Part shown: piece after piece, positions 7,743 through 62,787 of the stretch
How positions within the stretch are numbered: position 1 is the first letter of the stretch
Layout: every line of letters begins with the position of its first letter
From: Candidatus Omnitrophota bacterium
GTDB taxonomy: Bacteria > Omnitrophota > Gorgyraeia > Gygaellales > Profunditerraquicolaceae
NCBI GenBank assembly: GCA_028716245.1
Contig: JAQUQW010000002.1
Coordinates: 229,346 to 293,345, forward strand
Length of the DNA stretch: 64,000 nt
Reading direction: 5' to 3'
Notes under the pieces: model-generated
Databases searched by the model: none
Told to the model about the DNA's origin: nothing
Seen by the model: only the letters and a program-made list of their open reading frames with translations
Translations under genes and position numbers: made by a program

Positions 7743-7757
7743 TCTTAGGAGAACCCG

Positions 7758-8528
7758 ATGCACATAGTGTCTGTTTTGATCTTTGGTATTGTCGAGGGGA
7801 TTACGGAGTTCCTGCCTGTTTCTTCGACCGGCCACTTAATGCTAACCGCAAAACTTCTTCAGATCAGCCAATCGGAATTTATCAAAAGTTTTGAAATCTC
7901 TATCCAACTGGGTGCAATACTGGCAGTGGTTGTTTTGTATTGGGACAGGTTGATCAAGGGCTGGGAGATCTGGAAACGCTTATTGGTTGCTTTTTTGCCC
8001 GCGGCCCTGATTGGGGCCCTGTTTTATAAAATGATCAAAAGATATCTTTTGGGCAATAATGAAGTGGTGCTTTGGTCCTTGTTTATCGGCGGGTTATTTT
8101 TGATTGTCTTTGAATTGCTGCACCGCGAAAAAAAAGGCGCGGTTGAGGAATTGTCCGCTGTTTCTTATCCGCAGGCATTGGTTATTGGTTTGTTCCAATC
8201 GGTAGCGATGATTCCGGGAGTTTCCCGGGCCGCGGCTACGATTATCGGGGGCTTGGTGGTGGGGTTAAAAAGAAAAACTATCGTGGAGTTTTCATTCCTC
8301 CTGGCGGTTCCCACTATGCTGGCGGCAACGGCTTTGGATCTTTTTAAAAGCGCCCAGGTCTTTAAATCGGGCCAGTTTGTTTCTTTGGGGACAGGTTTTA
8401 TTGTTTCATTTTTTGTGGCTCTTGCTGCGATTAAGTTTTTGCTCAGCTTTATCAAGCGCCACAGTTTTATTGCTTTCGGGGTATACCGCGTAATTATTGT
8501 TTTGGTGTTTTGGTTAATAGTGAAGTAA
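7758..8528 (+). CDS. uppP: undecaprenyl-diphosphatase
   Basis: GITEFLPVSSTGHL and PGVSRAAATI motifs of BacA/UppP. Confidence 0.9.
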   Translation: MHIVSVLIFGIVEGITEFLPVSSTGHLMLTAKLLQISQSEFIKSFEISIQLGAILAVVVLYWDRLIKGWEIWKRLLVAFLPAALIGALFYKMIKRYLLGNNEVVLWSLFIGGLFLIVFELLHREKKGAVEELSAVSYPQALVIGLFQSVAMIPGVSRAAATIIGGLVVGLKRKTIVEFSFLLAVPTMLAATALDLFKSAQVFKSGQFVSLGTGFIVSFFVALAAIKFLLSFIKRHSFIAFGVYRVIIVLVFWLIVK

Positions 8529-50128: not shown

Positions 50129-50163
50129 TAAATAAAAAATTATTAATCAAAACGGGAGGAAAG

Positions 50164-50664
50164 ATGAAAAAGGCAGCAGTAGTTTTGTGGGGGGCAATCT
50201 TTGGTTTGGTCTTATTTGCCGCAAGCGCTCAGGCCGCGGATAAGCTCGGTTATATCGATCTAAGCCGCACCTTCAGTGAATATAGCAAGACCAAAGGATA
50301 TGATAAAACTTTAACCGATAAAGAAAAGGCTTATACCGAAGAACGTGACAAAAAAGTGGCCGACCTTAAGGCCTTTCAAGATAAATTGAATTTACTTAAT
50401 GACAAAGAAAGAGAAGCAAAAAAAGATGACCTTCAAAATAAGGTGAAAGCCTTTCAGGATTATGACCGCCAGAAGCAGACTGAACTGCGTAAAGAGCAGG
50501 ATGAAAGAATGAAGGAGATCCTTAAAGATATCGAGGAAGCGGTTAAGAAATATTCCGAAAAAGAAGGGTACACCTTTGTTTTTAATGACCGGGTGTTGGT
50601 TTATCAAAATAAAACTCTGGACATTACCAGCCAGATTATTGATATTTTGAATAAAGGAAAGTAA
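50164..50664 (+). CDS. skp: periplasmic chaperone Skp (OmpH)
   Basis: Signal peptide, coiled-coil rich 166 aa, position between bamA and lpxD. Confidence 0.8.
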   Translation: MKKAAVVLWGAIFGLVLFAASAQAADKLGYIDLSRTFSEYSKTKGYDKTLTDKEKAYTEERDKKVADLKAFQDKLNLLNDKEREAKKDDLQNKVKAFQDYDRQKQTELRKEQDERMKEILKDIEEAVKKYSEKEGYTFVFNDRVLVYQNKTLDITSQIIDILNKGK

Positions 50665-50670
50665 TAGGCA

Positions 50671-51702
50671 GTGCAGAAAACACTTAAGGAAATAGCCAAA
50701 CTTATCGGCGGACAAGTTATCGGCGACGGCGATATCCTGATTACCGGGGCCTCAGGAATTAAAGAGGCGGCTGAAGGGGAGATTACTTTCCTGGCCAATC
50801 CCAAATACAACTCGCTTATGGATAAGACCCGGGCCGCGGCGATTGTTACCTCAGCTGAGGCGCAGAAAACTACCAAGCCGGTAATCTTAATTGAAAATCC
50901 TTCTCTGGCTTTTACCAAGATTATTTCTATGTTCATGCCTGATGAAGTAGGGCATCCCAAGAACATAGATTATACCGTAGTCCTGGGCAAGGATGTTTTT
51001 TTAGGCAAAGACGTGGCTATCGGGCCTTATACGGTTATCGGCGATAATGTTGTAATAGGAGATAACGCCATAATTTACGCCGGCTGTTATATCGGCCACC
51101 ATACAAAAATAGGCGACAATACTTTAATTTATCCGCATGTTTCCATACGCGAACGCATCAGTATTGGCAGAAGCGTAATTATTCATTCCGGCACAGTCAT
51201 CGGTTCGGATGGGTTTGGATTCGCTACGATTAAGGGGCTGCACCATAAGATCCCTCAGGTGGGGACAGTTGAGATCGGCGATGATGTTGAGATCGGCGCC
51301 AATGTTACCATTGACCGGGCGCGTTTTGATAAGACGGTTATCGGCCGGGGAACTAAAATCGATAACCTTGTCCAAATTGCCCATAATGTAGTTATCGGTG
51401 AAAATTCTCTTATCGTCGCCCAGGTAGGTATATCCGGCAGCACGATTATCGGTAATAATGTGACTTTAGGCGGCCAAGCCGGTTTGGTCGGCCACATCAA
51501 TATCGGTAATAACGCCATTGTAACCGCCCAATCCGGAGTAGCAAAATCCGTTCCACCGGATACGATGGTCTCAGGCTATCCGGCCCGGCCTTTTATGACT
51601 ACGCAGAGAGCAAACGCCAGCCTTCAGAACTTACCTAAGCTATTTGATCTGGTTAAGGAATTAAAGAAAAAGATTGAAGAGCTGGAAGCTAAATTAAAAT
51701 AA
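50671..51702 (+). CDS. lpxD: UDP-3-O-acylglucosamine N-acyltransferase
   Basis: Hexapeptide-repeat left-handed beta-helix, 343 aa, C-terminal coiled-coil. Confidence 0.9.
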
Positions 51703-51762
51703 ATCAATCCCTTAATTTTGTCAGGATTGATACTAGAGCGGCGATAGCCGCGAAAGTATAAA

Positions 51763-53055
51763 ATGGAAAAACAAAGGACAATCGCCAAAGAAATTCAGCT
51801 TAAAGGTATTGGCATCCATACGGGCAATAAGGTTAATCTTACCCTTAAGCCGGCAGAGGCAGATAGCGGCGTAACTTTTATCCGCACAGATATTCCCGCG
51901 GCTCCCAGGATAAAGGCCAATGTGGAATTTTTGCTGGCGCAGAAATTGAGCCGGCGCTCCTCCATCGGAAATGGCCAGGTAGAGGTGCAGACTGTCGAGC
52001 ACCTTATGGCGGCATTATCCTGCTTAGGAATTGATAATATTGATATCCAGATAGATAATAATGAGCTCCCTGGCTTAGACGGCAGCGCCAGCGGTTTTGT
52101 CGAGGCCCTGGAAAAGGCCGGGATAGCTCAACAGGAAAAACAAAAATATATTTATACGGTTAAGGCGCCCATAAGCATCCAGGAAGGCCCAAGTTCCGTT
52201 ACTATCTTGCCGTCTAAAGAGTTTAAGGTTTCCTACACCTTAAACTATGACCATCCTCTGCTTGAGTCGCAGTTTTTAGAGGTGGCGGTTAACCCGGAGT
52301 CTTTTAAGAAAGAGATTGCTCCGGCGCGGACTTTCTGCATGGAGAGCGAAGCCCGGCAATTACAAAATCAGGGCTTAGGCCTGGGGGCCAATTATGAAAA
52401 TACCCTGGTCGTCGGCACCGCGGGGGTAATTAAAAATAAGCTTAGGTTCAAGGATGAATTTGTCAGGCATAAGATCCTGGATTTAATCGGCGATCTCTAT
52501 TTAGCCGGTTGTCCGATTTACGGCCACGTGATCGCCATAAAAAGCGGGCATTCTTTGAATCTCAAGATCGCCCAGAAAATCCATGAGCAAAGAATAAAAA
52601 CACAAGGAGCTGCGGATATGAAAGAGGTCTTGGATGTTAACGAGATTATGAAGATTTTACCGCACCGCCAACCGTTCCTGTTTGTTGACCGGGTTACCCA
52701 TTTGGAAAAGGGCAAGCGGGCAGTCGGGATTAAAAACGTAACCATAAATGATTATTTTTTCAAAGGCCATTTTCCGGGCCGTCCGGTTATGCCGGGGGTG
52801 CTTATTTTAGAGGCGATGGCCCAGGTTGGCGGGGTAATGATGCTGGCCAGCGAGGAGAACCGGGGGAAGCTGGCGTTTTTTATGGCCATTGATAACGCCA
52901 AGTTCAGAAAAACAGTTGTTCCCGGGGACCAATTGGTTTTTGAAGTAGAGGCCGGAAAGATGCGCTCAAAGATCGGCTTGGTGCATGGCAAGGCATTGGT
53001 AGACGGCAAAGTGGTCGCCGAAGCCGATTTAATGTTCGCCTTGGTAGAGGATTAA
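51763..53055 (+). CDS. lpxC-fabZ: fused UDP-3-O-acyl-GlcNAc deacetylase / 3-hydroxyacyl-ACP dehydratase
   Basis: N-terminal LpxC domain (HxxxD zinc region, HSLNLK) continuous with C-terminal FabZ hot-dog ([26 protein letters not shown]). Confidence 0.85.
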
Positions 53056-53057
53056 TT

Positions 53058-53837
53058 ATGCAGATACACCCTTCAGCAATAGTTTCTCCGAAAGCAAAAT
53101 TAGCATCAGGGGTAACGGTCGGCCCCTTTAGCATAATCAGCGATAATGTCAGTATCGGCGCCGATACCAAAGTCGGCGCGCATTGCGTAATCGAAGGAAA
53201 CACCGCTATCGGCCGCGGCTGTGAAATATTTACCGGAAGCGTCATCGGCAGCCGGCCGCAAGACCTTAAATTCAAAGGTGAAAAAGTATTCTTAGAAATA
53301 GGCAACAATAATATTATCCGCGAGTATTGCACGCTTAATCCGGGGACAAAAGAAGGGGCAAAAACAATTATCGGTGACAATAATTTACTGATGGCTTATT
53401 CGCATGTCGCCCACGATTGCCAGGTTGGCAGCGGGTGTGTTTTGGCCAATAACTGCACCCTGGCCGGCCATGTCACCATTGAAGACTCCGCGGTTATCGG
53501 CGGGATAGTGGCCATACATCAGTTTGTGCGCATTGGCAGGCTTTCAATTATCGGAGGATGCTCTAAAGTCGTCCAGGATATTCCCCCGTTTTCTACCTGC
53601 GATGGGCATCCGGCGCGCGTCTACGGTTTGAATCTTATCGGTTTAAGGCGTAAAGGCATTTCCAACGCGTCCATCAAACAGCTTGATCAAGCGTTTAAAA
53701 TGATCTTTAATTCCGGATTATCCGTAAAGCACGCCGTTGAAAGAGTAGAAAAAGAACTGGAGAAAAGCCAAGAGATAACTTATCTGGTTAATTTCACTAA
53801 AAACTCTGAGCGCGGTTTAACCCGCTCCTGTCGCTAA
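53058..53837 (+). CDS. lpxA: acyl-ACP--UDP-GlcNAc O-acyltransferase
   Basis: MQIHPSAIVSPKAKL; hexapeptide repeats; 259 aa. Confidence 0.9.
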   Translation: MQIHPSAIVSPKAKLASGVTVGPFSIISDNVSIGADTKVGAHCVIEGNTAIGRGCEIFTGSVIGSRPQDLKFKGEKVFLEIGNNNIIREYCTLNPGTKEGAKTIIGDNNLLMAYSHVAHDCQVGSGCVLANNCTLAGHVTIEDSAVIGGIVAIHQFVRIGRLSIIGGCSKVVQDIPPFSTCDGHPARVYGLNLIGLRRKGISNASIKQLDQAFKMIFNSGLSVKHAVERVEKELEKSQEITYLVNFTKNSERGLTRSCR

Positions 53838-53841
53838 ATTA

Positions 53842-54645
53842 ATGCCAAAGATCGGTTTGATTGCCGGAAACAGAAAATTCCCCCTGCTTTTTGCCGCCGC
53901 GGCCCGCAAAAAAGACTGTTCAATTGTCGCTATTGCCATTAAAGGCGATACCTCGCCCAAACTAAAGAAACTGGTTGATAAAATATACTGGATCGGCCTG
54001 CCTGAATTTCAGAAAATCTTTGAGATATTTAAATCCGAAGCAGTAGAGGGCGTGGTCATGGCCGGACAAATCAGCCCGCACAGATTATTCAGTAAAGAGA
54101 TTAATAAAAGCCCGGAATTAAAACAGATTTTAGAGAGCCTAAAAGACAAAAAGACGGATACATTATTCGGGGCGGTGGCGCAAAAATTGGAAGAAGCCGG
54201 TTTATCTCTTTTAGACTCAACGACATTTATCGAAGAGTATCTGCCTAAAAAAGGCACGCTGACCAAACATCAGCCGGATTTTAATACCTGGGAAGATGTC
54301 TATTTCGGTTTAAGTTTGGCTAAGGCGGTGGCCAGTTTAGATATCGGCCAGACGGTGGCGGTAAAAAGCAAGACCATAGTTGCCGTTGAGGCTTTTGAAG
54401 GGACGGATAATTTGATTCGCCGGGCAGGCAAAATCAGCCGCGGCAGGATGGTAATCGTTAAGGTAAGTAAACCCAAGCAGGACATGCGCTTTGATATTCC
54501 GGTTATCGGCTTAAATACGATAAAAAATCTGACCAAGGCCAAAGCCAGGTGCCTGGCGTTTGAAGCCGGCAAAACACTTTTTATCGACCAAGAAGAAAGC
54601 ATCCGGCTGGCGGATAAAAAGGGTATCTCCATTGTCGCGGTATAA
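53842..54645 (+). CDS. lpxI: LpxI-family (DUF1009) UDP-2,3-diacylglucosamine hydrolase candidate
   Basis: MPKIGLIAGNRKFPLL N-terminus typical of LpxI; position immediately after lpxA; 267 aa. Confidence 0.55.
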   Translation: MPKIGLIAGNRKFPLLFAAAARKKDCSIVAIAIKGDTSPKLKKLVDKIYWIGLPEFQKIFEIFKSEAVEGVVMAGQISPHRLFSKEINKSPELKQILESLKDKKTDTLFGAVAQKLEEAGLSLLDSTTFIEEYLPKKGTLTKHQPDFNTWEDVYFGLSLAKAVASLDIGQTVAVKSKTIVAVEAFEGTDNLIRRAGKISRGRMVIVKVSKPKQDMRFDIPVIGLNTIKNLTKAKARCLAFEAGKTLFIDQEESIRLADKKGISIVAV

Positions 54646-54703: not shown

Positions 54704-54979
54704 ATGCCACGGACAGCTGAAACAAAACCAACGGAGTTTAAGTTATATGCCCCTGGGGCCAAAAAGGTTATGGTTGCCGGAAGTTTCAATAAATGGGATA
54801 CCAAGAAATTATCTGCCAAGAAAGACAGCAAGGGTAATTGGTTGGCAAAGGTAGCCCTTAAGCCGGGCAGGTATGAGTATAAATTTGTCGTTGATGAAAA
54901 TTGGACAAATGACCCCCGTTGCACCTCTTGCGTAGCCAATTCGCTGGGTTCGCATAACTCTGTAGTTGAGGTTAAATAA
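54704..54979 (+). CDS. stand-alone CBM48/AMPK-beta-like glycogen-binding module
   Basis: FKLYAPGAKKVMVAGSFNKWDTKKL...GRYEYKFVVDENWTNDP matches CBM48 core. Confidence 0.6.
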   Translation: MPRTAETKPTEFKLYAPGAKKVMVAGSFNKWDTKKLSAKKDSKGNWLAKVALKPGRYEYKFVVDENWTNDPRCTSCVANSLGSHNSVVEVK

Positions 54980-55144: not shown

Positions 55145-55864
55145 ATGAAATATATCTACGGCCCGATAAAATCGCGCAGGCTGGGGCTTTCCTTAGGTTT
55201 AAGCCTAAGCCCTAATAAAATATGCAATCTGGATTGTATTTATTGCCAATGGGGCTCTGTCGGCAAAACTGTTGCTGAAAGAAAAGAATACGCCAGCCCA
55301 GCTGAAATTATCTCTGAGTTAAAATCCTGGATCCAAAATAATCCCCAAGAATTTAAAGAGCTAAAATTCGTCACTCTTTCCGGTTTAGGCGAGCCGACGC
55401 TAAATACCTGCATCGGGGAACTGATCGATCAGGTAAAGGCGATTACCGGCGCAAGCATCGCTGTAATTACCAATTCTGCGCTTCTGGGGGATCCTTTGGT
55501 GCGTAAGGGGATTTTGAAAGCGGATTTAATTGTTCCTTCTCTGGATGCGGTTGACCCGCAAATCTTTAAACAGATCGACCGGCCGGATACGGCTATAAAA
55601 TTAAATGAAATTATCGACGGCTTAATTGCTTTAAAAAAAGAATTCCGCGGTAAGATCTGGCTTGAGATCATGCTGGTTGCCGGGGTCAATGATGATTTTG
55701 GCCATATCGAGGAATTAAAAAAGATAATCCAGCGCATCAATCCGGATAAAATCCAGCTTAATTCTCCGGTGCGCTCAACCGCCGAGAAAAACGTTCTTCC
55801 CGTCGAGAGGGCAAAATTAGAGAAGATAAAAGAGTTCTTAGGGGATAAGGCGGAGATTGTTTAG
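55145..55864 (+). CDS. radical SAM domain protein (COG0731-like)
   Basis: CNLDCIYCQWG CxxxCxxC cluster motif after GPIKSRRLGLSLG N-term; 239 aa. Confidence 0.7.
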   Translation: MKYIYGPIKSRRLGLSLGLSLSPNKICNLDCIYCQWGSVGKTVAERKEYASPAEIISELKSWIQNNPQEFKELKFVTLSGLGEPTLNTCIGELIDQVKAITGASIAVITNSALLGDPLVRKGILKADLIVPSLDAVDPQIFKQIDRPDTAIKLNEIIDGLIALKKEFRGKIWLEIMLVAGVNDDFGHIEELKKIIQRINPDKIQLNSPVRSTAEKNVLPVERAKLEKIKEFLGDKAEIV

Positions 55865-55887: not shown

Positions 55888-55961
55888 GCGCCTGTAGCTC
55901 AACTGGATAGAGCATCAGTCTTCGGAACTGATTGTTGCTGGTTCGACCCCAGCCAGGCGCA
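55888..55961 (+). tRNA. tRNA-Arg (anticodon TCG)
   Basis: GCGCCTGTAGCTCAACTGGATAGAGCATCAGTCTTCGGAACTGATTGTTGCTGGTTCGACCCCAGCCAGGCGCA; loop CTTCGGA. Confidence 0.85.
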
Positions 55962-55969
55962 TAAAGCCT

Positions 55970-55998
55970 TTGACTATCTTAGACGGGGGCGTATAATA
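55970..55998 (+). promoter_or_regulatory. consensus sigma70 promoter (TTGACT-17-TATAAT) driving the lipoprotein cluster
   Basis: TTGACT ~55970-55975, TATAAT ~55993-55998; AAGGAG SD at ~56013 and GTG start 56026. Confidence 0.55.
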
Positions 55999-56025
55999 AA
56001 TCATATTTAAAATCAAGGAGATACA

Positions 56026-57474
56026 GTGATAATATGGGATTATCAGAATAAGGGCAGCTTATTGATTTATTTAGGGGTAATTTGCCTATCTCTTTTAGTT
56101 TCGGGTTGCGCTTCAACAAGCACTTTCAATTCGTATTCCTCCCAGCTTAATCCCATGATAAATGATATGCGAAACAGTAAGCCAATTGATCTTACAAGGC
56201 AGTTTAACGGTAGAATAAATTCTAGCGATAAAATTCTTTATTTAACGGAAATGGGACGCATTGCACAAATTCAAGGTGATTTTGTTAGAAGTAAGAAGAG
56301 TTTTGAATCCGCGATCCAAGCAATTAAAGAATCTGACCAGAAGGCCGTCATGAGTGCTTCCGGTGCCGTAGCGCAAGCATCAAGTGTTATCGTAAACGAT
56401 AATACTATCCCTTATAAGGGAGATGGGTATGAGCGTGTAATGCTGCATCATTTTCAGGCCTTAAACTATCTTGCGCAGAATGATGTCGAAAATGCCGGTG
56501 TTGAGATACGCCTTGCAAACGCAGAGCAAGAGAATGCTCTCAAATTACATGAGCAGGAAATTGAGCGCGCGCAGGAATCGGCTAGAAAACAGAACATATC
56601 TGGCCAAGAACCAGGTGCGGTAGTTAATGCTTACGCGCAAATGGATGCTGCCATAGGCGGCATTAAAAGTTCTTTTCAGAATGCTGCCACTTTTTATTTA
56701 TCAGGAGTTATATATGAGGCCTTAAGTCAGGCCAACGATGCCTATATCGATTATAAAAAAGCGCTGGAAATCTTTCCTAACAATATATATCTCCAAAAGG
56801 ACGCTATACGTCTGGCAAGGCAACTTAATATGGGCTCAGACTTAAATAAATTCAAGTCTCTTTATCCAGCAGCCTTTGAAATTAAACAATCTGTTCCTAA
56901 AAATAGCGGAGAATTGATTGTTTTATTCGATGATGATTTCGTAGCCCAAAAACAACAAATAAAAATTCCTATTCCAATTTCACTCCAAACGATTAATTTT
57001 ATTGCCGTGGCTTTTCCCATATATAATATAAGACCGTTTAATCCTGCTGGATTATATATTCAAGAGTTTGGCAATATGCTTGGAGAGACCCAGCCGATTT
57101 GCAATCTTAATGCGCTAGCCCTCAAATCATTAAAGGAAAAAGTTCCTGTTGTCACTATTCGTCAGTTAATCCGGGCCGGGGCAAAGGCTTCAATGGCAAA
57201 AGTTGCTGAAAAACAAGGCGGATGGCTAGGTTCTTTAGCTGCTAGTGTTTACAATGTTTTTAGCGAGAATGCCGATTTGCGCAGTTGGGTTACGCTCCCT
57301 GCTGATGTACAGATTATGCGTTTAAATCTTTCTCCAGGGGAACACCAGTTTAATATCTTCCATAAAGAATCCGATGCTAATACCGCATTAAATGTTAATA
57401 TAAAGGAAAAAACCAAAACAATCGTTTATATAATTCGTGCTGGAAATAAGTTATATTCTAAGGTAATGTTATAG
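56026..57474 (+). CDS. TPR-containing lipoprotein (Cj0089/COG3014-like?)
   Basis: Lipobox LLVSGCAST; 482 aa; TPR-like helical region; first gene of operon ending in LpoB-like gene. Confidence 0.55.
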   Translation: MIIWDYQNKGSLLIYLGVICLSLLVSGCASTSTFNSYSSQLNPMINDMRNSKPIDLTRQFNGRINSSDKILYLTEMGRIAQIQGDFVRSKKSFESAIQAIKESDQKAVMSASGAVAQASSVIVNDNTIPYKGDGYERVMLHHFQALNYLAQNDVENAGVEIRLANAEQENALKLHEQEIERAQESARKQNISGQEPGAVVNAYAQMDAAIGGIKSSFQNAATFYLSGVIYEALSQANDAYIDYKKALEIFPNNIYLQKDAIRLARQLNMGSDLNKFKSLYPAAFEIKQSVPKNSGELIVLFDDDFVAQKQQIKIPIPISLQTINFIAVAFPIYNIRPFNPAGLYIQEFGNMLGETQPICNLNALALKSLKEKVPVVTIRQLIRAGAKASMAKVAEKQGGWLGSLAASVYNVFSENADLRSWVTLPADVQIMRLNLSPGEHQFNIFHKESDANTALNVNIKEKTKTIVYIIRAGNKLYSKVML

Positions 57475-57487
57475 GGTATAGAGTTAT

Positions 57488-58492
57488 ATGGAGGCTGAGA
57501 TGATGAAAAAATACACTTTAGCTGCGCTTTTAATGGCCGCATTTTTATTTACATCGGTTTTTGCTGCTGAGCCTGATCAGAAAGAATTGGGTTCTAAGAT
57601 TAAAGTTGCTATCTTTGTTCAAAATCGAGCGGATTCATTTTTACTGAAAAAGTTAGGCACCTTTAATGATTTAATCACCAGCCGTCTTACGCAAAAAGGG
57701 CTTACTGTTATAGACAAAAATGATGTATTGGCTAAATTTAGAGAATCGCGTGTAGCTGAGCCCGGTCTCTCTAATACGATTAAGATGCTCACGGATATCG
57801 TTAAAGCCATAAAAACAGAAGCTCCAGTTGAGACGATTAGTGATGGCAGCGCGCTACGAATATCTCAAATGATCGGAGCAGACTATTTACTTTTTGTTTC
57901 CATTGTTTCTTTCGGTGAAGAGCATAAGAAATTTAAAGGAGAAGGCACTATCTATGGCACTAATACAGAAGCCGCAGATTACATTCTGCGTCTTTCTATT
58001 AAAGTTTTAGATGGATCTCAGGGGGGAAGCATATTTGCCGATATCGCTACAGTTTCTGAACGCATGGCGTATCTGCCAAGCCTTGAGATTCAATCGAGTG
58101 AGATTATTAATAAGCTGCTAGATGCAGGCTCATTAAAGTTGGCGGACAGCATATCCACGAAGATTGGCGACATTCGTAAAGCCGAACCCCAAAAGTTACC
58201 ACCTGTAAATTTTACTATTAAAAGTAATGTTGACGGAGCAACAGTTGAATTAGATGGTGCGGCTATTGGTTCGACTTCAGGTAATTTCAAGGCTAGCCCA
58301 GGATTGCATCAGATACGTATTTCAAAAGAGCGCTTTGCTACCTGGGAGAAAACTGTAAATATTTATGCGGGTCAGGCCCTCAATGTAAAGTTAGAGTTGT
58401 CTAGCGAGGGTCTTGAAAGAGCGAAAGAACAAAAAGATATAGATAGCCTGCTGTATCGGGTTACAAAAGATAAGAAGGGAGATGACAAATGA
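57488..58492 (+). CDS. secreted protein: LpoB/CsgG-fold N-domain + C-terminal PEGA-like domain
   Basis: Signal peptide; KIKVAIFVQNRADS...ADYLLFVSIVSF...ILRLSIKVLDGSQGG pattern shared with LpoB/CsgG family; C-term NFTIKSNVDGATVELDG...GLHQIRISKERFATWEKTVNI resembles PEGA. Confidence 0.45.
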   Translation: MEAEMMKKYTLAALLMAAFLFTSVFAAEPDQKELGSKIKVAIFVQNRADSFLLKKLGTFNDLITSRLTQKGLTVIDKNDVLAKFRESRVAEPGLSNTIKMLTDIVKAIKTEAPVETISDGSALRISQMIGADYLLFVSIVSFGEEHKKFKGEGTIYGTNTEAADYILRLSIKVLDGSQGGSIFADIATVSERMAYLPSLEIQSSEIINKLLDAGSLKLADSISTKIGDIRKAEPQKLPPVNFTIKSNVDGATVELDGAAIGSTSGNFKASPGLHQIRISKERFATWEKTVNIYAGQALNVKLELSSEGLERAKEQKDIDSLLYRVTKDKKGDDK

Positions 58493-59478
58493 AATTTCTA
58501 AAAGAAAAGTTGTTCCTTGCAGTAATATTCATGGGCTCATCTTTATTAGTTAGTATTCCTTTGGTATCGGCGGAAGAACATGGTCAGGAAGGGAAAGACA
58601 CGATTTTAATTGGCCGCATTCAGATTCAACCTTCAGTTCAGGAAATGGCGCAGGCCAAGGGTTATAATTTGCAGTTGAAACGCGTTGCAGAGTCTATTGA
58701 GTCACAACTTATAAATACTTTAGGCGCTTCAGAATTATTTCTTATGGTAGAACGTAAACGCAAAAGCGATATAGAATTGGAACAAGCTTTCGCTGCGGTA
58801 GCAACTAATCCTGGGGATAAAAATGCGGCACAGGTTTTGAAAATGACAGGAGCTAAGTATATATTTCTTCCCCAAATTGATGGTTTTGAAGATATCGTTG
58901 AAACTCAAGAACATGCTGCTATAGGCAGGGTATCTAGAGAGAGAAAGTTATATCTTTCAGTTGTTGTGCAGATCGTAGACGCAACGACTGCAGAAATGTT
59001 GCCTGCTATTGCGAGCATTCAGATTGAGAAAAGATTAGATGCGGAAATGGTACGCCTGGGAACAGAGATGTCTAGCGAGAAAGGTTTGGTTGAACTTTCT
59101 AAGGAAATGGCAGAGAAACTCACCCAAAGCGTAGTTTGTGCTTTACGTCCTCCAACGATTTTAACAGTTACAGGACAACAGGTATTGATTAACCGAGGCC
59201 AAGATGCGGGTTTTAAAAATGGCGATGAAATTGAGATTTTTGCGACTCAACACATAAAGGATGCAGAAAATAACCGGTTTATAAAAAACGAGGCTCTAGT
59301 CGGTAAAGCTATTATTTTTCGCTCTGAACGCTCAAATAGTTCTGCTAATCTTACAGGGGAAAATTTGGGTGTCACAGGTGGCTGTATAGTTAAACCGGCT
59401 ATGAATAATTCTCAACCAACAGGGCAAAATGTTCTTACGCCAGGTTCAAGTGAAAAGCCTTTAAAATGGACTCAATAA
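58489..59478 (+). CDS. secreted protein with LpoB/CsgG-fold N-domain (paralog)
   Basis: Signal peptide; DTILIGRIQIQPS...AKYIFLPQIDGF...LYLSVVVQIVDATTAE same spacing pattern as neighbours. Confidence 0.4.
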   Translation: MKFLKEKLFLAVIFMGSSLLVSIPLVSAEEHGQEGKDTILIGRIQIQPSVQEMAQAKGYNLQLKRVAESIESQLINTLGASELFLMVERKRKSDIELEQAFAAVATNPGDKNAAQVLKMTGAKYIFLPQIDGFEDIVETQEHAAIGRVSRERKLYLSVVVQIVDATTAEMLPAIASIQIEKRLDAEMVRLGTEMSSEKGLVELSKEMAEKLTQSVVCALRPPTILTVTGQQVLINRGQDAGFKNGDEIEIFATQHIKDAENNRFIKNEALVGKAIIFRSERSNSSANLTGENLGVTGGCIVKPAMNNSQPTGQNVLTPGSSEKPLKWTQ

Positions 59479-59490
59479 AAGGGGGATTGT

Positions 59491-59946
59491 ATGGGATATA
59501 CTACAAAAAACAAAAATTACAATATTTTTAAGTTCCTTGGATTATTTGTGCTGATTTTTGCTTTAGCAGAAGTTTTGAATGGATGTGGAACTGCGGGTAT
59601 GGCAGGTTCGGCTAATGTAGTAGAAGGTCCTAATGGATATATGCAAGAAAGTAGAGTTGTGGTGTATAATAACTGGCTTGCCCATTATATTAAGATTACA
59701 GACTTAAAAAGCTTTTTTGTCGGGGATTTATTAAAGGCGAACGTCACAGTATTTTCAAAAGCATTAAGTACTCTAAATTTACAATATAAATTTAGGTGGT
59801 ATAATTCTCAGAGTTCAGAGGTAGAATCTGAGTCTTCGCCATGGCAACCACTAATCTTGTATGGAAAAGAGACCAAGAGCGTGCAAGCTGTAGCACCTAA
59901 TCCCAGCGTAAAAGAATTTAAAATCGAAATAAGATTTAGAGAATAA
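59491..59946 (+). CDS. small lipoprotein (YcfL/Cj0090-like position)
   Basis: Lipobox VLNGCGTAG; 151 aa; immediately upstream of LpoB-like gene as ycfL is in E. coli. Confidence 0.35.
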   Translation: MGYTTKNKNYNIFKFLGLFVLIFALAEVLNGCGTAGMAGSANVVEGPNGYMQESRVVVYNNWLAHYIKITDLKSFFVGDLLKANVTVFSKALSTLNLQYKFRWYNSQSSEVESESSPWQPLILYGKETKSVQAVAPNPSVKEFKIEIRFRE

Positions 59947-59962
59947 GAAGGAGTGAGCAGAT

Positions 59963-60571
59963 ATGAAAAAGAATAAATATTTATTAATCAGCAGTCTTGG
60001 GCTAAGTTTATTTATTTTTCCAGGATGTGCAACAGCACCTGTTGTCCAATATGGCGATGCACAAGCTTTACAGCAAATTTCCACTGATTTTAGTTCTTCC
60101 GACCTTCAGCAGATTGCTGCGTCCATGGTAGATTCCCTGTTGACTTTTCCGCCCATAGTTGAAGTTACGAATCAAAGGCGGCCTGTTATTACCGTAGATA
60201 AGATTAAGAATAAAACAATGCAGCACATTGATACAGAATCCGTTACTGATTCTATACGGGCAAAATTGGTTAAATCTGGAAAGTTTCGTTTTATTGATCG
60301 CAGCACCGATGAAGCAACTACCGATGAGGTTAAAACACAACAGGATAGCGGCCTAGTAGATAAAAGTACAGCTGTCCAATTTGGTAAACAGATAGGCGCT
60401 GAATATATGTTAACAGGTAATATATCAGAAATTCAGCAACATGGCGGTAGAGTGGAAGATGTATATTATAAGTTTACTCTTAATCTGAAAAATATCTCTA
60501 CAGGAATTTTGGAGTGGACGGACGAAAAGGAAATTAGGAAAGTAAGCAAGCGCCCAGTTTTTGGCACCTAA
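59963..60571 (+). CDS. LpoB-family lipoprotein (penicillin-binding-protein activator-like; COG3417)
   Basis: Lipobox IFPGCATAP; PVITVDKIKNKT...SIRAKLVKSGKFRFIDRS...GAEYMLTGNISEI...YKFTLNLKNISTGILEWTDEKEIRK matches LpoB C-domain pattern. Confidence 0.55.
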   Translation: MKKNKYLLISSLGLSLFIFPGCATAPVVQYGDAQALQQISTDFSSSDLQQIAASMVDSLLTFPPIVEVTNQRRPVITVDKIKNKTMQHIDTESVTDSIRAKLVKSGKFRFIDRSTDEATTDEVKTQQDSGLVDKSTAVQFGKQIGAEYMLTGNISEIQQHGGRVEDVYYKFTLNLKNISTGILEWTDEKEIRKVSKRPVFGT

Positions 60572-60609
60572 GCTGTATAGTAATTTACGTAAAAAGATAT
60601 TTTATTTTA

Positions 60610-60644
60610 CAGATATCCCCACAACTTTTGTGGGGATATCTGTA
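60610..60644 (+). repeat. perfect 15-bp hairpin ACAGATATCCCCACAA-CTTT-TTGTGGGGATATCTGT downstream of lipoprotein operon (terminator-like, no U-tract)
   Basis: Read directly from sequence. Confidence 0.5.
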
Positions 60645-60807
60645 ATAGTATGATAAAATAACCTTTTTAAAGAACAGCAAAATTCCCAGTGCAGTTGATA
60701 TCTTGGCCAAGCGCATAGATACAAGTTGGTCAGGAGAGCCGATTCTAGAAATAGTTGACAAAAAGGCAATTTTGTAATACTTTGATAAAGCGCTAGTTAC
60801 GTTATTT

Positions 60808-60880
60808 GGGCCATTAGCTCAATTGGCAGAGCAGGACACTCTTAATGTCAAGGTCGGTGGTTCGACTCCACCATGGCCCA
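60808..60880 (+). tRNA. tRNA-Lys (anticodon CTT)
   Basis: GGGCCATTAGCTCAATTGGCAGAGC...loop CTCTTAA...GGTTCGACTCCACC ATGGCCCA; preceded by TTGACA ~60753. Confidence 0.85.
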
Positions 60881-60907
60881 TTTTATTCATTCTACTAAAA
60901 AAACCCG

Positions 60908-61324
60908 ATGAAGAATTATGAAGTATTAGAGCATACCGCGGATATCGGCATCAGGGTAAAATCCTCATCTCTGGAAGGCCTGTTTAAGAGCGCCGGCCTG
61001 GCTATAACCGAGTTTTCCGCGAAAAAACAAAAAAATCAATTTCCGGAAAAACATAAATTTGTCATTACGCAAAAAGCAGCTAATGTCGAGGAGCTTTTTG
61101 TCAATTGGCTTAATGAGTTATTGTCCTTATCTTGCGCCGAGGCGCTTATCTTTGAAGATATCAAAATAAATCAGATCAACGAGCAGTTTGTCGACGCCGT
61201 CGCCACAGGAACCGACAACAGGAATTATAAGACAAGCGTCGAGATCAAGGCGGCAACCTACCATCAGCTTAAAGTCCAAAAAATTAACTCTCACTGGCAG
61301 GCAGAAGTAATTTTTGACGTTTAA
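60908..61324 (+). CDS. archease
   Basis: MKNYEVLEHTADIGIRV N-term signature; 138 aa. Confidence 0.85.
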   Translation: MKNYEVLEHTADIGIRVKSSSLEGLFKSAGLAITEFSAKKQKNQFPEKHKFVITQKAANVEELFVNWLNELLSLSCAEALIFEDIKINQINEQFVDAVATGTDNRNYKTSVEIKAATYHQLKVQKINSHWQAEVIFDV

Positions 61325-61332
61325 AAGTCAAA

Positions 61333-62787
61333 ATGCCCGATCATATCCAATTAGAAAAAATTGATGATTACCGCTGGCGTATTCCCAAAAGCTATAAACC
61401 GGGAATGCGGGTGCCCGGATTAATTTATGCCAGCGAAAAGCTGTTAGAGAGTATTTATAAGGATAAGGCGTTAGAGCAGGTGGCCAATGTGGCGTTTTTG
61501 CCCGGAATTGTCAAACATTCCCTGGCTATGCCTGATATTCATTGGGGTTACGGATTCCCAATCGGCGGAGTTGCGGCTACGGATATTGATGAGGGTGGGG
61601 TTATCTCACCCGGGGGAGTTGGTTTTGACATAAATTGCGGGGTAAGATTAGTAAAAACTAATTTAGGGTATGATGATGTTAAAGACAAGCTTGAAGATTT
61701 AACTAACCGTTTGTTTTCCGATGTGCCTGCCGGAGTCGGCTCTGAAGGTAATATCAGAGTAGGGACCAAAGAAGAGAAACAAATATTATTAAAAGGCAGC
61801 CGCTGGGCGGTAGAAAACGGATTTGGCACAGAGGATGACCTTGAATGTACTGAAGAAAACGGCGCAATCCAGGGAGCAGACCCGGAGGCGGTTTCCGAGC
61901 GCGCTTTTCAAAGAGGCAAAGCCCAATCAGGTACCCTGGGTTCGGGAAATCATTTTTTAGAGGTGCAGGTAATCGATCAACTTTATGACCGGGAGGCTTG
62001 CGATACGCTGGGCCTGAATTTAGGCCAGGTAATGGTAATGATCCATTCCGGTTCGCGCGGATTTGGCTACCAGATTTGCGAAGATTACGCGCGCAAGATG
62101 GTCGAAATTTTACCAAAATATAAAATAAATGTTCCCGACAGGCAGCTGGCTTGCGCGCCGGTTAACTCCAATGAAGGTAAGGCTTATTTGGGAGCAATGC
62201 GCTGCGCGGCAAATTATGCCTGGGCAAACCGCCAATGTCTGATGCATTTAACCCGGCAGGCGTTTGAGAAAGTATTTGGTTTGTCCTGGCAAAAACTGGG
62301 AATGTTTCTGATTTATGATGTTGCCCATAATATCGCCAAGATCGAGAAGCATGAGGTTGATGGCGTAAAGAAAAATCTTTGCGTGCACCGTAAAGGCGCC
62401 ACCCGCGCCTTTGGGCCGGGAAATCCGGCCATACCGGAAAGGTATAGAAAAATCGGCCAGCCGGTAATTATCCCCGGAGATATGGGTAGGAATTCATATT
62501 TGTTGGTGGGTACGCAAAAGGCAATGGAGGATACTTTTGGCAGCACTTGTCATGGGGCAGGCCGGCTGATGTCACGCACTGCCTCGGCCAAATCTACCAG
62601 CGCAGATATATTGTTGAAAGAATTAAGATCTAAAGGTATAATAGTGAAAGCTTCCGGCCGTAAAACCGTCGTCGAAGAGGCGCCAATGGCCTATAAAGAT
62701 GTAAATGAAGTGGTCGATGTGGTGGCCAACGCCGGAATCGGAAAACGCGTCTGCCGGATGCGGCCGCTGGGCGTAGTTAAAGGATAA
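61333..62787 (+). CDS. rtcB: RNA 3'-phosphate ligase RtcB
   Basis: 484 aa; [39 protein letters not shown] motifs. Confidence 0.95.

What the first reader, a model, noticed from the sequence alone, without database searches (positions are those of the whole stretch)
56026..60571. Five-gene envelope lipoprotein operon with three paralogous LpoB/CsgG-fold domains (expanded Cj0089-Cj0091 / ycfL-lpoB-type cluster)
A consensus TTGACT-17-TATAAT promoter (55970-55998) is followed by five same-strand, tightly packed secreted proteins. They are a 482-aa TPR lipoprotein, two ~330-aa proteins sharing an N-terminal x-I-x-V-x-x-F-x-N motif domain (one with a C-terminal PEGA-like domain), a 151-aa lipoprotein, and a 202-aa LpoB-like lipoprotein. 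The TPR lipoprotein + small lipoprotein + LpoB-like triad resembles the conserved Campylobacter cj0089-cj0091 / E. coli ycfL-lpoB arrangement. The two inserted paralogs with extra domains are unusual and could form a periplasmic scaffold regulating peptidoglycan synthases. The function is unknown.
Basis: inference. Interest (0 to 1): 0.55.

Follow-up and report, generated by a model that had tools for sequence, protein, structure and literature searches.

The report
Expanded LpoB envelope lipoprotein operon
This is a real, tightly packed five-gene operon for cell-envelope proteins: three outer-membrane lipoproteins, including a relative of the cell-wall-synthase activator LpoB, plus two secreted FlgT-like proteins. 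The whole set is conserved across several bacterial phyla, but nobody has studied it as a unit.

Summary
Five same-strand ORFs (56026-60571; gaps 13, -4, 12 and 16 nt) lie between two tRNA genes. A promoter-like site (11 of 12 consensus bases) and a Shine-Dalgarno sequence precede them, and a strong hairpin follows.

The proteins are:
- p1: TPR lipoprotein.
- p2: secreted; N-domain without a Pfam model, then PEGA.
- p3: secreted; CsgG-like domain, then a FlgT_C-like barrel.
- p4: YcfL/DUF1425 lipoprotein.
- p5: LpoB-family lipoprotein.

Domain-level profile comparisons and AlphaFold/Foldseek show that the N-domains of p2 and p3 and the p5 domain are homologous. FlgT is the closest solved structure for both p2 and p3.

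The core p1-p4-p5 is a broader form of the E. coli ycfL-lpoB locus: Aeromonas has hinT-p1-ycfL-lpoB-thiK, and E. coli lacks p1. p3 is a frequent accessory gene. p2 occurs almost only together with p3, and one Geobacter MAG fuses them. The complete five-gene form occurs in Omnitrophota, Desulfuromonadales, Lentisphaerae and Auribacterota.

No paper in the searched library describes this variant. The most likely function is inferred, not shown: an outer-membrane-anchored periplasmic complex acting on peptidoglycan enzymes. I rate it a new variant of a known kind, of moderate interest.

The parts
55970..55997 (+). Sigma-70-like promoter candidate TTGACT-16 nt-TATAAT. It starts 9 nt after tRNA-Arg ends and lies 28 nt upstream of the p1 start.
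   Evidence: 11 of 12 consensus matches; sequence. The position fits a roughly 20-nt leader containing GGAG at 56016-56019. Function was not tested.
56026..57474 (+). p1: 482-aa outer-membrane lipoprotein (lipobox LVSG-C28). It has a helical, TPR-containing N-terminal part (one Pfam TPR at aa 221-253) and a roughly 190-aa C-terminal domain with no known family. It is the anchor gene of the cluster, present in every layout sampled.
   Evidence: invariant C28 and many invariant motifs such as DAYIDYKK and ADLRSW; 283 species-level relatives; PDB sequence search finds only generic TPR; lipobox in 72/85 family members.
57488..58492 (+). p2: 334-aa Sec-secreted soluble protein. Its parts are a signal peptide, an alpha/beta N-domain (about aa 36-232, FlgT-M/CsgG/LptE-like fold, no Pfam model), a PEGA beta-sandwich (aa 241-305) and a C-terminal helix.
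   Evidence: model pLDDT 86.4; FlgT 3w1e E 5e-9, then GNA1162, HpaA, CT253, CsgG, LptE, PelC; no lipobox, 0/19; only 250 cluster representatives among 1.84 billion.
58489..59478 (+). p3: 329-aa Sec-secreted soluble protein. Its parts are a CsgG/LpoB-like alpha/beta domain (about aa 34-220), a FlgT_C-like beta-barrel (about aa 221-305) and a disordered tail carrying the conserved motif PGSSEKPLKW (aa 318-327). Its start overlaps the p2 stop by 4 nt.
   Evidence: invariant G319, S320, P324; pLDDT 82.6; tail below 50; FlgT 3w1e E 9e-17, LPHT ring 8z5n, CsgG about 1e-5; tail motif in every homologue; no lipobox, 0/45.
59491..59946 (+). p4: 151-aa YcfL-family (DUF1425) lipoprotein (lipobox LNG-C32).
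   Evidence: PF07233, 6e-23; PDB 3o0l, 6e-10; lipobox 58/66; 34% identity to the Aeromonas YcfL-position gene; weak but significant match to E. coli YcfL.
59963..60571 (+). p5: 202-aa LpoB-family lipoprotein (lipobox FPG-C22). It has a short linker, an LpoB domain at aa 47-191 and a conserved basic C-terminal tail (...DEKEIRKVSKRPVFGT).
   Evidence: PF13036 2e-50; TIGR02722 185 bits, cut-off 110.6; only 22% identity to E. coli LpoB; 48% identity to the Aeromonas gene at the lpoB position; tail conserved; lipobox 60/76.
60607..60645 (+). Perfect 18-bp stem, 3-nt loop hairpin starting 36 nt after the p5 stop. It is the probable end of the transcription unit, but has no canonical U-tract.
   Evidence: sequence; ViennaRNA, -28.5 kcal/mol. 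The terminator scan did not flag it because no T-run follows.

Best explanation
The operon most likely encodes an outer-membrane-anchored periplasmic protein complex built on an old, widespread three-lipoprotein core: a TPR lipoprotein (p1), YcfL (p4) and LpoB (p5). E. coli ycfL-lpoB is a reduced version of this core.

In this Omnitrophica genome, and in several other phyla, the core carries two extra soluble subunits, p2 and p3. Each is built like FlgT: an LpoB/CsgG-type alpha/beta domain followed by a beta-domain (PEGA in p2, a FlgT_C-like barrel in p3).

Proposed mechanism (inferred):
- The three lipoproteins hang from the inner face of the outer membrane.
- The TPR protein acts as the hub. 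Conserved C-terminal tails of p3 (PGSSEKPLKW) and of p5 (basic tail ending FG-x) dock onto it.
- p2 and p3 pair with each other and extend the assembly towards the peptidoglycan.
- The complex couples the outer membrane to cell-wall enzymes. p5 would act on a class A PBP, as LpoB does. p1 would act on hydrolases, as proposed for HP0018.

Shown here: gene structure, family and fold assignments, homology of the three domains, which proteins are lipoproteins and which are soluble, co-conservation, the modular layouts and one p2-p3 gene fusion.

Inferred: physical complex formation, tail docking, and any effect on peptidoglycan enzymes.
For: Operon structure: gaps of 13, -4, 12 and 16 nt, one promoter-like site and one terminal hairpin.

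Family assignments.

Lipoprotein versus soluble: p1 72/85, p4 58/66 and p5 60/76 have a lipobox; p2 0/19 and p3 0/45 do not.

Homology of p2N, p3N and p5: hhalign 96%, 82% and 61% against controls of 15% or less; HMM cross-hits; shared fold set.

Core equals the ycfL-lpoB locus:
- Aeromonas has hinT-p1-ycfL-lpoB-thiK, with p5 48% and p4 34% identical to the window proteins.
- E. coli has hinT-ycfL-lpoB-thiK.

Modularity over 87 loci: p1-p4-p5 in 24, the five-gene order in 17, p1-p3-p4-p5 in 14, p3-p1-p4-p5 in 9 and p1-p5 in 8.

Dedicated membership: all six look-ups anchored on p2 or p3 landed in the cluster.

Similar divergence of all five proteins between phyla.

Rosetta-stone fusion: p2N fused to p3 in Geobacter MAG L012.

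Tails: the p3 tail and p5 tail are conserved in all layouts. E. coli LpoB, whose genome locus lacks p1, has no such tail. The Aeromonas and Azospirillum LpoB genes sit next to a p1 homologue and keep one.

Functional precedents from the literature:
- V. cholerae lpoB is synthetically lethal with mrcA and lpoA (PMC4063736).
- Loss of H. pylori HP0018, which the paper reports as a homologue of the TPR lipoprotein Cj0089, gives vesicle chains and altered cell shape. HP0018 co-precipitates AmiA and MltD, and it sits next to the LpoB homologue in enterohepatic Helicobacter species (PMC11394524).

Portable module: distant p2N+PEGA modules are fused to Ser/Thr kinase or trypsin-like protease domains, as expected for a portable extracytoplasmic binding module.
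Against: - No interaction among the five proteins, or with any PBP or hydrolase, was tested. No multimer prediction was available.
- p5 is only 22% identical to E. coli LpoB. It lacks the roughly 60-residue Pro-rich linker thought to let LpoB reach PBP1b.
- No class A PBP motif is present in the 64-kb window. Whether the genome has a PBP1b with a UB2H domain is unknown.
- The best structural match of p2 and p3 is a flagellar ring protein, not a PBP regulator.
- The only phenotype published for Cj0091 is reduced adherence and colonisation (PMC3100323).
- The tail-docking idea rests on conservation and on very few p1-lacking comparators (essentially E. coli).
- The C-terminal domain of p1 has no assigned fold.
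Confidence: 0.45

Rival explanations
1. A structural ring or disk under the outer membrane. On this reading p2 and p3 (and possibly p5) oligomerise like FlgT in the Vibrio H-ring, PelC or CsgG. The lipoproteins tether the ring to the outer membrane. Its job would be mechanical (stabilising the outer membrane) or to serve as a collar for some trans-envelope machine, not to regulate PBPs.
For: - FlgT and the LPHT ring are the top Foldseek hits for both p2 (5e-9) and p3 (9e-17). The other hits are ring-forming or outer-membrane-associated lipoproteins: CsgG 9-mer, PelC 12-mer and LptE.
- In H. pylori the LpoB homologue HP1457 belongs to the Lpp20 gene cluster (own knowledge). HP1456 (Lpp20) and the secreted HP1454 share one operon, have FlgP/FlgT-like folds and interact with flagellar disk proteins (PMC11756786).
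- The HP0018 mutant makes chains of outer-membrane vesicles.
Against: - No flagellar, pilus or secretion genes recur next to the cluster in the 87 loci scanned or in two later look-ups. The only recurrent extra gene is a DUF1566/Lcl_C lipoprotein in Desulfuromonadales.
- The FlgT_N domain is absent, and the FlgT_M and FlgT_C Pfam scores fall below the gathering thresholds.
- Deleting HP1456 did not change the H. pylori motor.
- Oligomerisation was not tested here.
Confidence: 0.25
2. A CsgG/HfaB-type outer-membrane export or anchoring channel for a fibre or polymer (curli-like, or a holdfast anchor), with the other proteins as accessory factors.
For: p3 passes the Pfam CsgG gathering threshold (35.6 against 20.8 bits). 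Databases label it 'CsgG/HfaB family' or 'curli ... secretion channel CsgG'.
Against: - p3 homologues have no lipobox (0/45).
- The match covers only profile positions 33-160 of 210.
- The long beta-hairpins of the model have charged tips (EDIVETQEHAAIGRVSRERK), not membrane-spanning ones.
- No CsgA/B/E/F-like or Hfa-like genes, glycosyltransferases or substrates recur nearby.
- FlgT matches far better than CsgG (9e-17 against about 1e-5).
Confidence: 0.05
3. Surface-exposed adhesin lipoproteins, following the published description of Cj0091 as an adhesin, with no role in the cell wall.
For: [quoted passage not shown]
Against: - The carriers here are free-living, environmental lineages (Omnitrophota, anammox Brocadia, Geobacteraceae) with no host.
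- The family includes the experimentally established periplasmic activator LpoB.
- The adherence defect can be an indirect envelope effect.
- The old 'SpaP adhesin' label came from a misnamed COG.
Confidence: 0.05

Closest known systems
E. coli ycfL-lpoB (hinT-ycfL-lpoB-thiK-nagZ locus). LpoB is the outer-membrane lipoprotein activator of PBP1b.
   Same: - p4 is in the YcfL family and p5 in the LpoB family (PF13036, TIGR02722), in the same order and adjacent.
- Both are lipoproteins.
- Aeromonas bridges the two loci by position.
   Different: - E. coli has no p1, p2 or p3.
- E. coli LpoB is only 22% identical to p5.
- It has a long Pro-rich linker, which p5 lacks.
- It lacks the conserved basic C-terminal tail of p5.
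- Activation of a PBP by p5 is untested.
Campylobacter jejuni cj0089-cj0090-cj0091 operon, and H. pylori HP0018 (TPR lipoprotein) with HP1457 (LpoB homologue).
   Same: - Same layout and similar sizes: TPR lipoprotein 453 aa, small lipoprotein 122 aa, LpoB-like lipoprotein 207 aa, against 482, 151 and 202 aa here (PMC3100323).
- That three-gene layout is the commonest among relatives of p1 (24 loci).
- HP0018 gives the only functional hints for the p1-type protein (PMC11394524).
   Different: - Two extra genes (p2, p3) are inserted between the TPR gene and the YcfL gene.
- Direct sequence homology of p1 to Cj0089 or HP0018 was not testable here, because no sequence was available to the tools.
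Vibrio FlgT (PDB 3w1e; LPHT ring 8z5n), the periplasmic H-ring protein of the sodium-driven flagellar motor.
   Same: - It is the best solved-structure match for both p2 and p3.
- Like them, it is a Sec-secreted, non-lipidated protein with an alpha/beta TolB-N/CsgG-like domain followed by a beta-domain.
- p3 also gives weak Pfam FlgT_M and FlgT_C hits.
   Different: - There is no FlgT_N domain.
- Pfam scores fall below the gathering thresholds.
- The overall TM-score is only about 0.33-0.35, so the domain orientation differs.
- There is no flagellar gene context; the genes are embedded in an LpoB cluster.
CsgG/HfaB family (curli secretion channel; holdfast anchor protein).
   Same: The alpha/beta core of p3 passes the Pfam CsgG threshold, and p5 also hits CsgG (5.6e-6).
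   Different: p3 has no lipid anchor and no membrane-spanning hairpins. It has no curli or holdfast partner genes. It carries an extra C-terminal barrel and tail.
H. pylori Lpp20 gene cluster (HP1454 secreted three-domain protein, HP1456/Lpp20 lipoprotein, HP1457 LpoB homologue).
   Same: Here too an LpoB-family lipoprotein is encoded together with extra proteins of FlgP/FlgT-like fold, one of them secreted and multi-domain (PMC11756786; PMC11394524). This is an analogous 'LpoB plus fold-relatives' expansion. That HP1457 lies beside HP1454-HP1456 is from my own knowledge.
   Different: Homology of p2 and p3 to HP1454 and HP1456 was not tested. Those structures did not appear among the top 50 Foldseek hits. 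The Helicobacter cluster has no PEGA domain and no YcfL gene.
NlpI, the E. coli TPR outer-membrane lipoprotein that scaffolds peptidoglycan hydrolases (PMC7049810, seen; my own knowledge for details).
   Same: This is a functional analogy for p1 only: a TPR-containing outer-membrane lipoprotein proposed to organise cell-wall enzymes.
   Different: No sequence relationship was detected. p1 is much larger and has a C-terminal domain of unknown fold.

Membership tests
LpoB family (PF13036 / TIGR02722), for p5 | Profile match above the curated thresholds | tested here: met
   PF13036 170.9 bits (cut-off 22.3), full-length 1-147/147. TIGR02722 185.1 bits (cut-off 110.55).
LpoB family (PF13036 / TIGR02722), for p5 | Outer-membrane lipoprotein (signal peptide with lipobox Cys) | tested here: met
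   Window p5 has ...LFIFPG-C22, an atypical Pro at position -2. 60 of 76 family members in the loci have a standard lipobox.
LpoB family (PF13036 / TIGR02722), for p5 | Positional equivalence with E. coli lpoB (next to ycfL) | tested here: met
   p4 (YcfL) lies directly upstream. The Aeromonas gene between ycfL and thiK is 48% identical to p5 (E 8e-65). E. coli has hinT-ycfL-lpoB-thiK.
LpoB family (PF13036 / TIGR02722), for p5 | Long disordered N-terminal linker able to span the periplasm (E. coli type) | tested here: not met
   E. coli LpoB has a Pro-rich stretch of about 60 residues after Cys. p5 has about 25 residues between Cys22 and the start of the Pfam domain at residue 47, and no Pro-rich region.
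LpoB family (PF13036 / TIGR02722), for p5 | Binds the UB2H domain of PBP1b and stimulates it | not testable with these tools
   The window has no class A PBP motif. The rest of the genome was not available, and no binding assay was possible.
YcfL family (DUF1425, PF07233), for p4 | Profile match above threshold, lipoprotein, adjacent to lpoB | tested here: met
   81 bits (cut-off 28.3). Lipobox LNG-C32, and 58/66 in the family. It lies directly upstream of p5. It matches the Aeromonas gene (2e-18) and E. coli YcfL (3e-4 by BLASTP; 8e-9 by family HMM).
Cj0089-Cj0091-type three-lipoprotein operon | Order: TPR lipoprotein, small lipoprotein, LpoB-like lipoprotein, all on one strand | tested here: met
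   The order is kept here, with p2 and p3 inserted. The plain three-gene form is found in 24 loci of p1 relatives. Published sizes are 453, 122 and 207 aa.
Cj0089-Cj0091-type three-lipoprotein operon | Sequence homology of p1 to Cj0089 / HP0018 | not tested
The p1 family does reach Gammaproteobacteria (Aeromonas 33% identity, 6e-60) and Alphaproteobacteria (Azospirillum, hhalign 98%).
CsgG curli channel, for p3 | Pfam CsgG match above the gathering score | tested here: met
   35.6 bits against 20.8, but only profile positions 33-160 of 210.
CsgG curli channel, for p3 | N-terminal lipid anchor | tested here: not met
   The signal peptide ends ...PLVSA/EE, with no Cys. 0/45 homologues have a lipobox.
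CsgG curli channel, for p3 | Two amphipathic transmembrane beta-hairpins that form the barrel | tested here: not met
   The long hairpin at residues 124-164 of the model has a charged tip (FEDIVETQEHAAIGRVSRERK).
CsgG curli channel, for p3 | Partner genes csgE/csgF and fibre subunits nearby | tested here: not met
   None were found in the called genes of 9 loci with precomputed Pfam or among the recurrent flank families.
FlgT (flagellar H-ring protein), for p2 and p3 | Fold of the FlgT middle and C-terminal domains | tested here: met
   Foldseek against 3w1e: p3 E 9.1e-17 over 295 columns; p2 E 5.2e-9 over 312 columns. TM-score is only 0.33-0.35 because the domain orientation differs.
FlgT (flagellar H-ring protein), for p2 and p3 | Pfam FlgT_N, FlgT_M and FlgT_C above the gathering scores | tested here: not met
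   p3: FlgT_M 22.6 bits (cut-off 31.2), FlgT_C 18.2 bits (cut-off 27), no FlgT_N hit. p2: no hits.
FlgT (flagellar H-ring protein), for p2 and p3 | Flagellar gene neighbourhood (flgO/flgP, motX/motY, and so on) | tested here: not met
   No flagellar families appear in the neighbourhoods or in the recurrent flank clusters.
PEGA domain (PF08308), for p2 | Profile match above threshold | tested here: met
   53.9 bits (cut-off 20.8), residues 241-305. The model shows a beta-sandwich at residues 240-300.

The most novel reading that the evidence does not exclude
The five proteins build a previously unrecognised, non-flagellar envelope machine. p2 and p3 would form a FlgT-type periplasmic ring or lattice, hung from the outer membrane by the TPR, YcfL and LpoB lipoproteins through conserved C-terminal docking tails. 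On this reading the well-studied E. coli LpoB-PBP1b pair is a stripped-down remnant of this ancestral multi-protein module, and flagellar FlgT/H-ring proteins may have been recruited from it.
Probability: 0.15. Interest if true: 0.7.

Novelty: new variant of a known kind. Interest (0 to 1): 0.45.

Why it matters
LpoB is a textbook example of how Gram-negative bacteria control cell-wall synthesis from the outer membrane, but it has been studied almost only in enterobacteria.

These data show three things:
- The LpoB gene usually sits in a larger conserved module, with a highly conserved TPR lipoprotein that E. coli has lost.
- Several phyla have added one or two dedicated FlgT-like soluble proteins to that module.
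- The fold used by flagellar H-ring proteins, CsgG, PelC and LptE recurs three times in one operon.

If the proteins form one complex, it would give a concrete, testable picture of how the outer membrane and the peptidoglycan machinery are coupled outside the model organisms. It would also suggest partners to look for in pathogens that keep the three-gene core, such as Campylobacter, Helicobacter, Aeromonas and probably Vibrio.

If they do not, the finding is still a clean annotation of a conserved cluster of otherwise 'hypothetical' envelope genes.

Tried and rejected
- **Pairwise BLASTP among p2, p3 and p5:** nothing significant. Full-length profile-profile comparison of p3 and p2 gave 1.3%. 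Homology appeared only after trimming to domains and using larger families.
- **p1 C-terminal domain (aa 290-482):** no PDB sequence match. No profile similarity to p2N, p3N, p5, p3C or p4. There is only a weak 15% hint to PEGA, which I do not accept.
- **Literature searches:** searches for YcfL/DUF1425/COG5633 and for combinations of PEGA, CsgG, LpoB and FlgT found no description of this cluster.
- **Class A PBP in the window:** GT51 motifs were searched and none found.
- **Recurrent neighbours:** flank clustering gave only a Desulfuromonadales-specific DUF1566/Lcl_C lipoprotein and lineage synteny (an ABC-F gene and an MFS gene).
- **Direct comparison of p1 with Cj0089 or HP0018:** not possible. 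The single genome-contig scan returned only the 80 closest relatives, and the plasmid collection yielded Aeromonas and Azospirillum instead.
- **CsgG-channel reading:** rejected because there is no lipid anchor, the hairpins are charged and there are no partner genes.
- **Flagellar reading:** down-weighted because there is no flagellar context in any locus examined.

Full report
**1. Observation**

The window carries five + strand ORFs at exactly the reported positions: p1 56026-57474 (482 aa), p2 57488-58492 (334 aa), p3 58489-59478 (329 aa), p4 59491-59946 (151 aa) and p5 59963-60571 (202 aa). They are separated by 13, -4, 12 and 16 nt.

The block is bracketed by tRNA-Arg(tcg) at 55888-55961 and tRNA-Lys(ctt) at 60807-60881. 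Nine nucleotides after tRNA-Arg ends lies TTGACT-16-TATAAT (55970-55997). It matches 11 of 12 consensus bases, and the spacer is 16, not 17. A GGAG box lies 6 nt before the GTG start of p1. A perfect 18-bp hairpin at 60607-60645 (-28.5 kcal/mol), without a U-tract, starts 36 nt after the p5 stop.

An identical 4.9-kb contig exists in a public run, and the proteins are 100% identical to those of a Candidatus Omnitrophica MAG.

**2. What each protein is**

Pfam and NCBIfam results:

| Protein | Best profile hits |
|---|---|
| p1 | One TPR repeat (aa 221-253); nothing else |
| p2 | PEGA (aa 241-305, 1.7e-14); N-terminal 200 residues unassigned |
| p3 | CsgG (7.9e-9, partial); sub-threshold FlgT_M and FlgT_C |
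| p4 | DUF1425/YcfL (6e-23) |
| p5 | LpoB (2e-50; TIGR02722 185 bits); secondary hits to CsgG and TolB_N |

A census of signal sequences in the families shows which are lipoproteins. p1 (72/85), p4 (58/66) and p5 (60/76) have a lipobox. p2 (0/19) and p3 (0/45) have ordinary signal peptides, so they are soluble periplasmic proteins.

**3. Are the three alpha/beta domains related?**

Pairwise BLASTP and a full-length profile comparison were negative. I then built families from the ORFs of 87 related loci and trimmed them to domains. With these, hhalign gave:
- p3N-p5: 96.3% (E 1.9e-9)
- p2N-p3N: 81.5% (E 1.1e-5)
- p2N-p5: 60.9% (E 8e-5)
- all 18 control pairs: 15% or less

The p3N HMM also hits the window's p5 (4.6e-12) and p2 (1.5e-6).

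The AlphaFold2 models are confident: p3 pLDDT 82.6 and p2 pLDDT 86.4. Foldseek against the PDB puts FlgT (3w1e) and the Vibrio LPHT ring (8z5n) first for both proteins (p3 9e-17; p2 5e-9). They are followed by CsgG, GNA1162, HpaA, CT253 and LptE, and for p2 also PelC.

So p2 and p3 are both built like FlgT: an LpoB/CsgG-type alpha/beta domain followed by a beta-domain. That beta-domain is PEGA in p2 and a FlgT_C-like barrel in p3.

p3 is not a CsgG channel. It has no lipid anchor, its long hairpins have charged tips, and no curli partner genes lie nearby.

**4. Conservation and layout**

Three look-ups anchored on p3 homologues from other phyla all showed TPR-like, PEGA, CsgG, DUF1425 and LpoB genes together. 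These were Desulfuromonadaceae, an unnamed MAG, and Ca. Euphemobacter of Auribacterota. Three further look-ups anchored on p2 or p3 gave the same cluster, one of them without the PEGA gene.

A scan of one genome per species with a p1 profile found 283 relatives. The best 80 were fetched. They come from Omnitrophota, Planctomycetota (Brocadia), Desulfuromonadales/Geobacteraceae, Verrucomicrobiota, Lentisphaerae, Kiritimatiellia, Gammaproteobacteria and others.

HMM-based gene calling on all 87 loci gave these layouts:

| Layout | Loci |
|---|---|
| p1-p4-p5 | 24 |
| p1-p2-p3-p4-p5 | 17 (plus 2 permuted and 3 truncated) |
| p1-p3-p4-p5 | 14 |
| p3-p1-p4-p5 | 9 |
| p1-p5 | 8 |

The system is therefore modular. 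p1, usually p4, and p5 form the core. p3 is a frequent accessory, and p2 occurs almost only together with p3.

Between phyla the five proteins diverge to similar extents: p1 33-61%, p2 39-54%, p3 40-49%, p4 38-64% and p5 61-82% identity. One Geobacter MAG fuses the p2 N-domain to p3 in a single 534-aa ORF (L012). That is a Rosetta-stone argument that p2 and p3 work together.

The p2 N-domain family is rare. It has only 250 cluster representatives among 1.84 billion proteins. Distant members keep the N-domain + PEGA tandem, and some are fused to a Ser/Thr kinase, a trypsin-like protease or TPR repeats. This suggests a portable extracytoplasmic binding module.

**5. Link to the known ycfL-lpoB locus**

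A tblastn search of the plasmid collection hit a 4.9-Mb Aeromonas caviae record. There the order is:
- hinT
- a p1 homologue (33% identity, 6e-60)
- a YcfL-like gene (34% identical to p4)
- an LpoB-like gene (48% identical to p5; TIGR02722 219 bits; PDB LpoB 1.6e-11)
- a thiK-like gene

E. coli has hinT-ycfL-lpoB-thiK-nagZ. The window's core is thus the broader form of the enterobacterial locus, and E. coli lacks p1.

p5 itself is only 22% identical to E. coli LpoB. It lacks the Pro-rich linker of E. coli LpoB, and it has a conserved basic C-terminal tail that E. coli LpoB lacks.

An Azospirillum plasmid carries a distant p1 (hhalign 98%), YcfL, LpoB, a DUF6844 protein and a 402-aa p3-like protein. 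The core has therefore been expanded with FlgT-like relatives more than once.

**6. Literature**

- The C. jejuni cj0089-91 operon has the same core layout (453, 122 and 207 aa). Only an adherence and colonisation phenotype has been reported for cj0091 (PMC3100323).
- H. pylori HP0018 is a homologue of Cj0089. Its loss gives chains of outer-membrane vesicles and less helical cells. It co-precipitates AmiA and MltD, and it is syntenic with the LpoB homologue HP1457 in other Helicobacter species (PMC11394524).
- In V. cholerae, lpoB is synthetically lethal with mrcA and lpoA (PMC4063736).
- In H. pylori, HP1456 (Lpp20) and the secreted HP1454 are encoded in one operon. They have FlgP/FlgT-like folds and interact with flagellar disk proteins, yet loss of HP1456 has no motor phenotype (PMC11756786). 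That the LpoB homologue HP1457 lies in the same gene cluster is from my own knowledge.
- No paper found describes the PEGA + FlgT-like + YcfL + LpoB arrangement.

**7. Mechanism**

I consider an outer-membrane-anchored periplasmic complex the best-supported reading. p1 would be the hub, and p2 and p3 would be soluble subunits. The output would act on peptidoglycan enzymes: p5 on a class A PBP and p1 on hydrolases.

The disordered but strictly conserved p3 tail (T-P-G-S-S-[ED]-K-P-x-x-W, then 0-2 residues) is found in every homologue, whatever the layout. The conserved p5 tail behaves the same way. Both are good candidates for docking peptides, and a TPR domain is the obvious receptor (inference). 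E. coli, the one p1-less case seen, has a tail-less LpoB, which fits but does not prove this.

The main rival is a purely structural FlgT/PelC/CsgG-style ring under the outer membrane. An export channel or an adhesin role is unlikely. No physical interaction was tested, so my confidence in the functional part is moderate at best.

**8. Novelty**

All five domain families are known, and the three-gene core has been described. The recurrent four- and five-gene forms with dedicated FlgT-like proteins have not been described in the literature I could search. The same applies to the p2 N-domain family, the conserved tails, and the recognition that E. coli ycfL-lpoB is a reduced form of a wider module. 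I rate it a new variant of a known kind, with moderate interest.

Noticed in passing
window 47744-54645: An outer-membrane biogenesis cluster lies directly upstream on the same strand: bamA (794 aa, 5 POTRA domains plus Omp85), skp/ompH, lpxD, a fused LpxC-FabZ protein (430 aa), lpxA and lpxI. The envelope operon therefore lies about 1.4 kb downstream of the lipid A/BAM genes.
   Followed up: partly
window 54704-54979: A stand-alone 91-aa protein consisting only of a CBM48/AMPK-beta glycogen-binding module (PF16561, 4e-17). It sits between lpxI and a radical-SAM gene (55145-55864).
   Followed up: no
window 55888-55961 and 60807-60881; 60908-62787: The operon is bracketed by tRNA-Arg(tcg) and tRNA-Lys(ctt). 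Directly after tRNA-Lys come archease and the RNA ligase RtcB. Whether the tRNA flanks reflect an insertion site was not examined.
   Followed up: no
window 59778-59805: A second strong promoter-like site lies inside p4: TTTACA-16-TATAAT, 11 of 12 matches, with an extended -10 TG. It ends about 158 nt upstream of the p5 start, so it could be an internal promoter for the LpoB-like gene alone.
   Followed up: no
window 59440-59469 (p3 aa 318-327); all p3 homologues in L001-L087: Every p3 homologue ends with T-P-G-S-S-[ED]-K-P-[LVI]-x-W followed by 0-2 residues, on a tail that AlphaFold predicts as disordered. This looks like a short linear docking motif.
   Followed up: partly
window 60521-60568 (p5 C-terminus); L088 6835-7431; L090 4851-5483; L089 4253-4894: LpoB-family proteins encoded next to a p1 homologue end in a 12-14-residue basic tail...EIRK-x7-FG-x in the p5 family, including Aeromonas, and ...SKLSSSRTVSW in Azospirillum. 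E. coli LpoB, which has no p1 neighbour, stops right after the domain and instead has a long Pro-rich N-terminal linker.
   Followed up: partly
L012 1937-3541 (Geobacter MAG DAIEGL010000275.1): A single 534-aa ORF fuses a p2-type N-domain (aa 35-211) to a complete p3 (aa 239-534), with no PEGA domain.
   Followed up: partly
proteins P0427, P0463, P0498, P0382: Distant relatives of the p2 N-domain + PEGA tandem are fused to a Ser/Thr protein kinase, to trypsin-like proteases or to TPR repeats. The tandem behaves as a portable extracytoplasmic module.
   Followed up: partly
36 loci, all annotated as Geobacteraceae, Desulfuromonadales or related deltaproteobacteria where the record title names a taxon (e.g. 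L002 10153-10647, L004 10153-10638): In these loci a sixth same-strand gene, a roughly 165-aa DUF1566/Lcl_C lipoprotein, follows the LpoB-like gene. It is present in 14/14 p1-p3-p4-p5 loci and 12/17 five-gene loci. It is absent from the window and from the other lineages sampled.
   Followed up: partly
L090 (Azospirillum sp. TSH100 plasmid p1, NZ_CP039640.1) 3081-8084: This plasmid-borne variant of the module has a distant p1, YcfL and LpoB, then a DUF6844 protein (448 aa) and a 402-aa p3-like protein with an extra N-terminal domain.
   Followed up: partly
L088 (NZ_AP026896.1, 'Aeromonas caviae plasmid pKAM479_3'): This PLSDB 'plasmid' is 4,944,632 bp long with only 18 annotated features, and it carries the hinT-ycfL-lpoB-thiK housekeeping locus. 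It is almost certainly a chromosome mislabelled as a plasmid.
   Followed up: no
window 57488-58492 versus Geobacteraceae p2 (e.g. L022 9415-10623): The p2 proteins of the window and of other Omnitrophota (about 330 aa) lack a roughly 45-residue Lys/Glu-rich extension and the conserved SY[DE]RxEGAPxTxIYK end found in the approximately 378-aa Geobacteraceae proteins.
   Followed up: no
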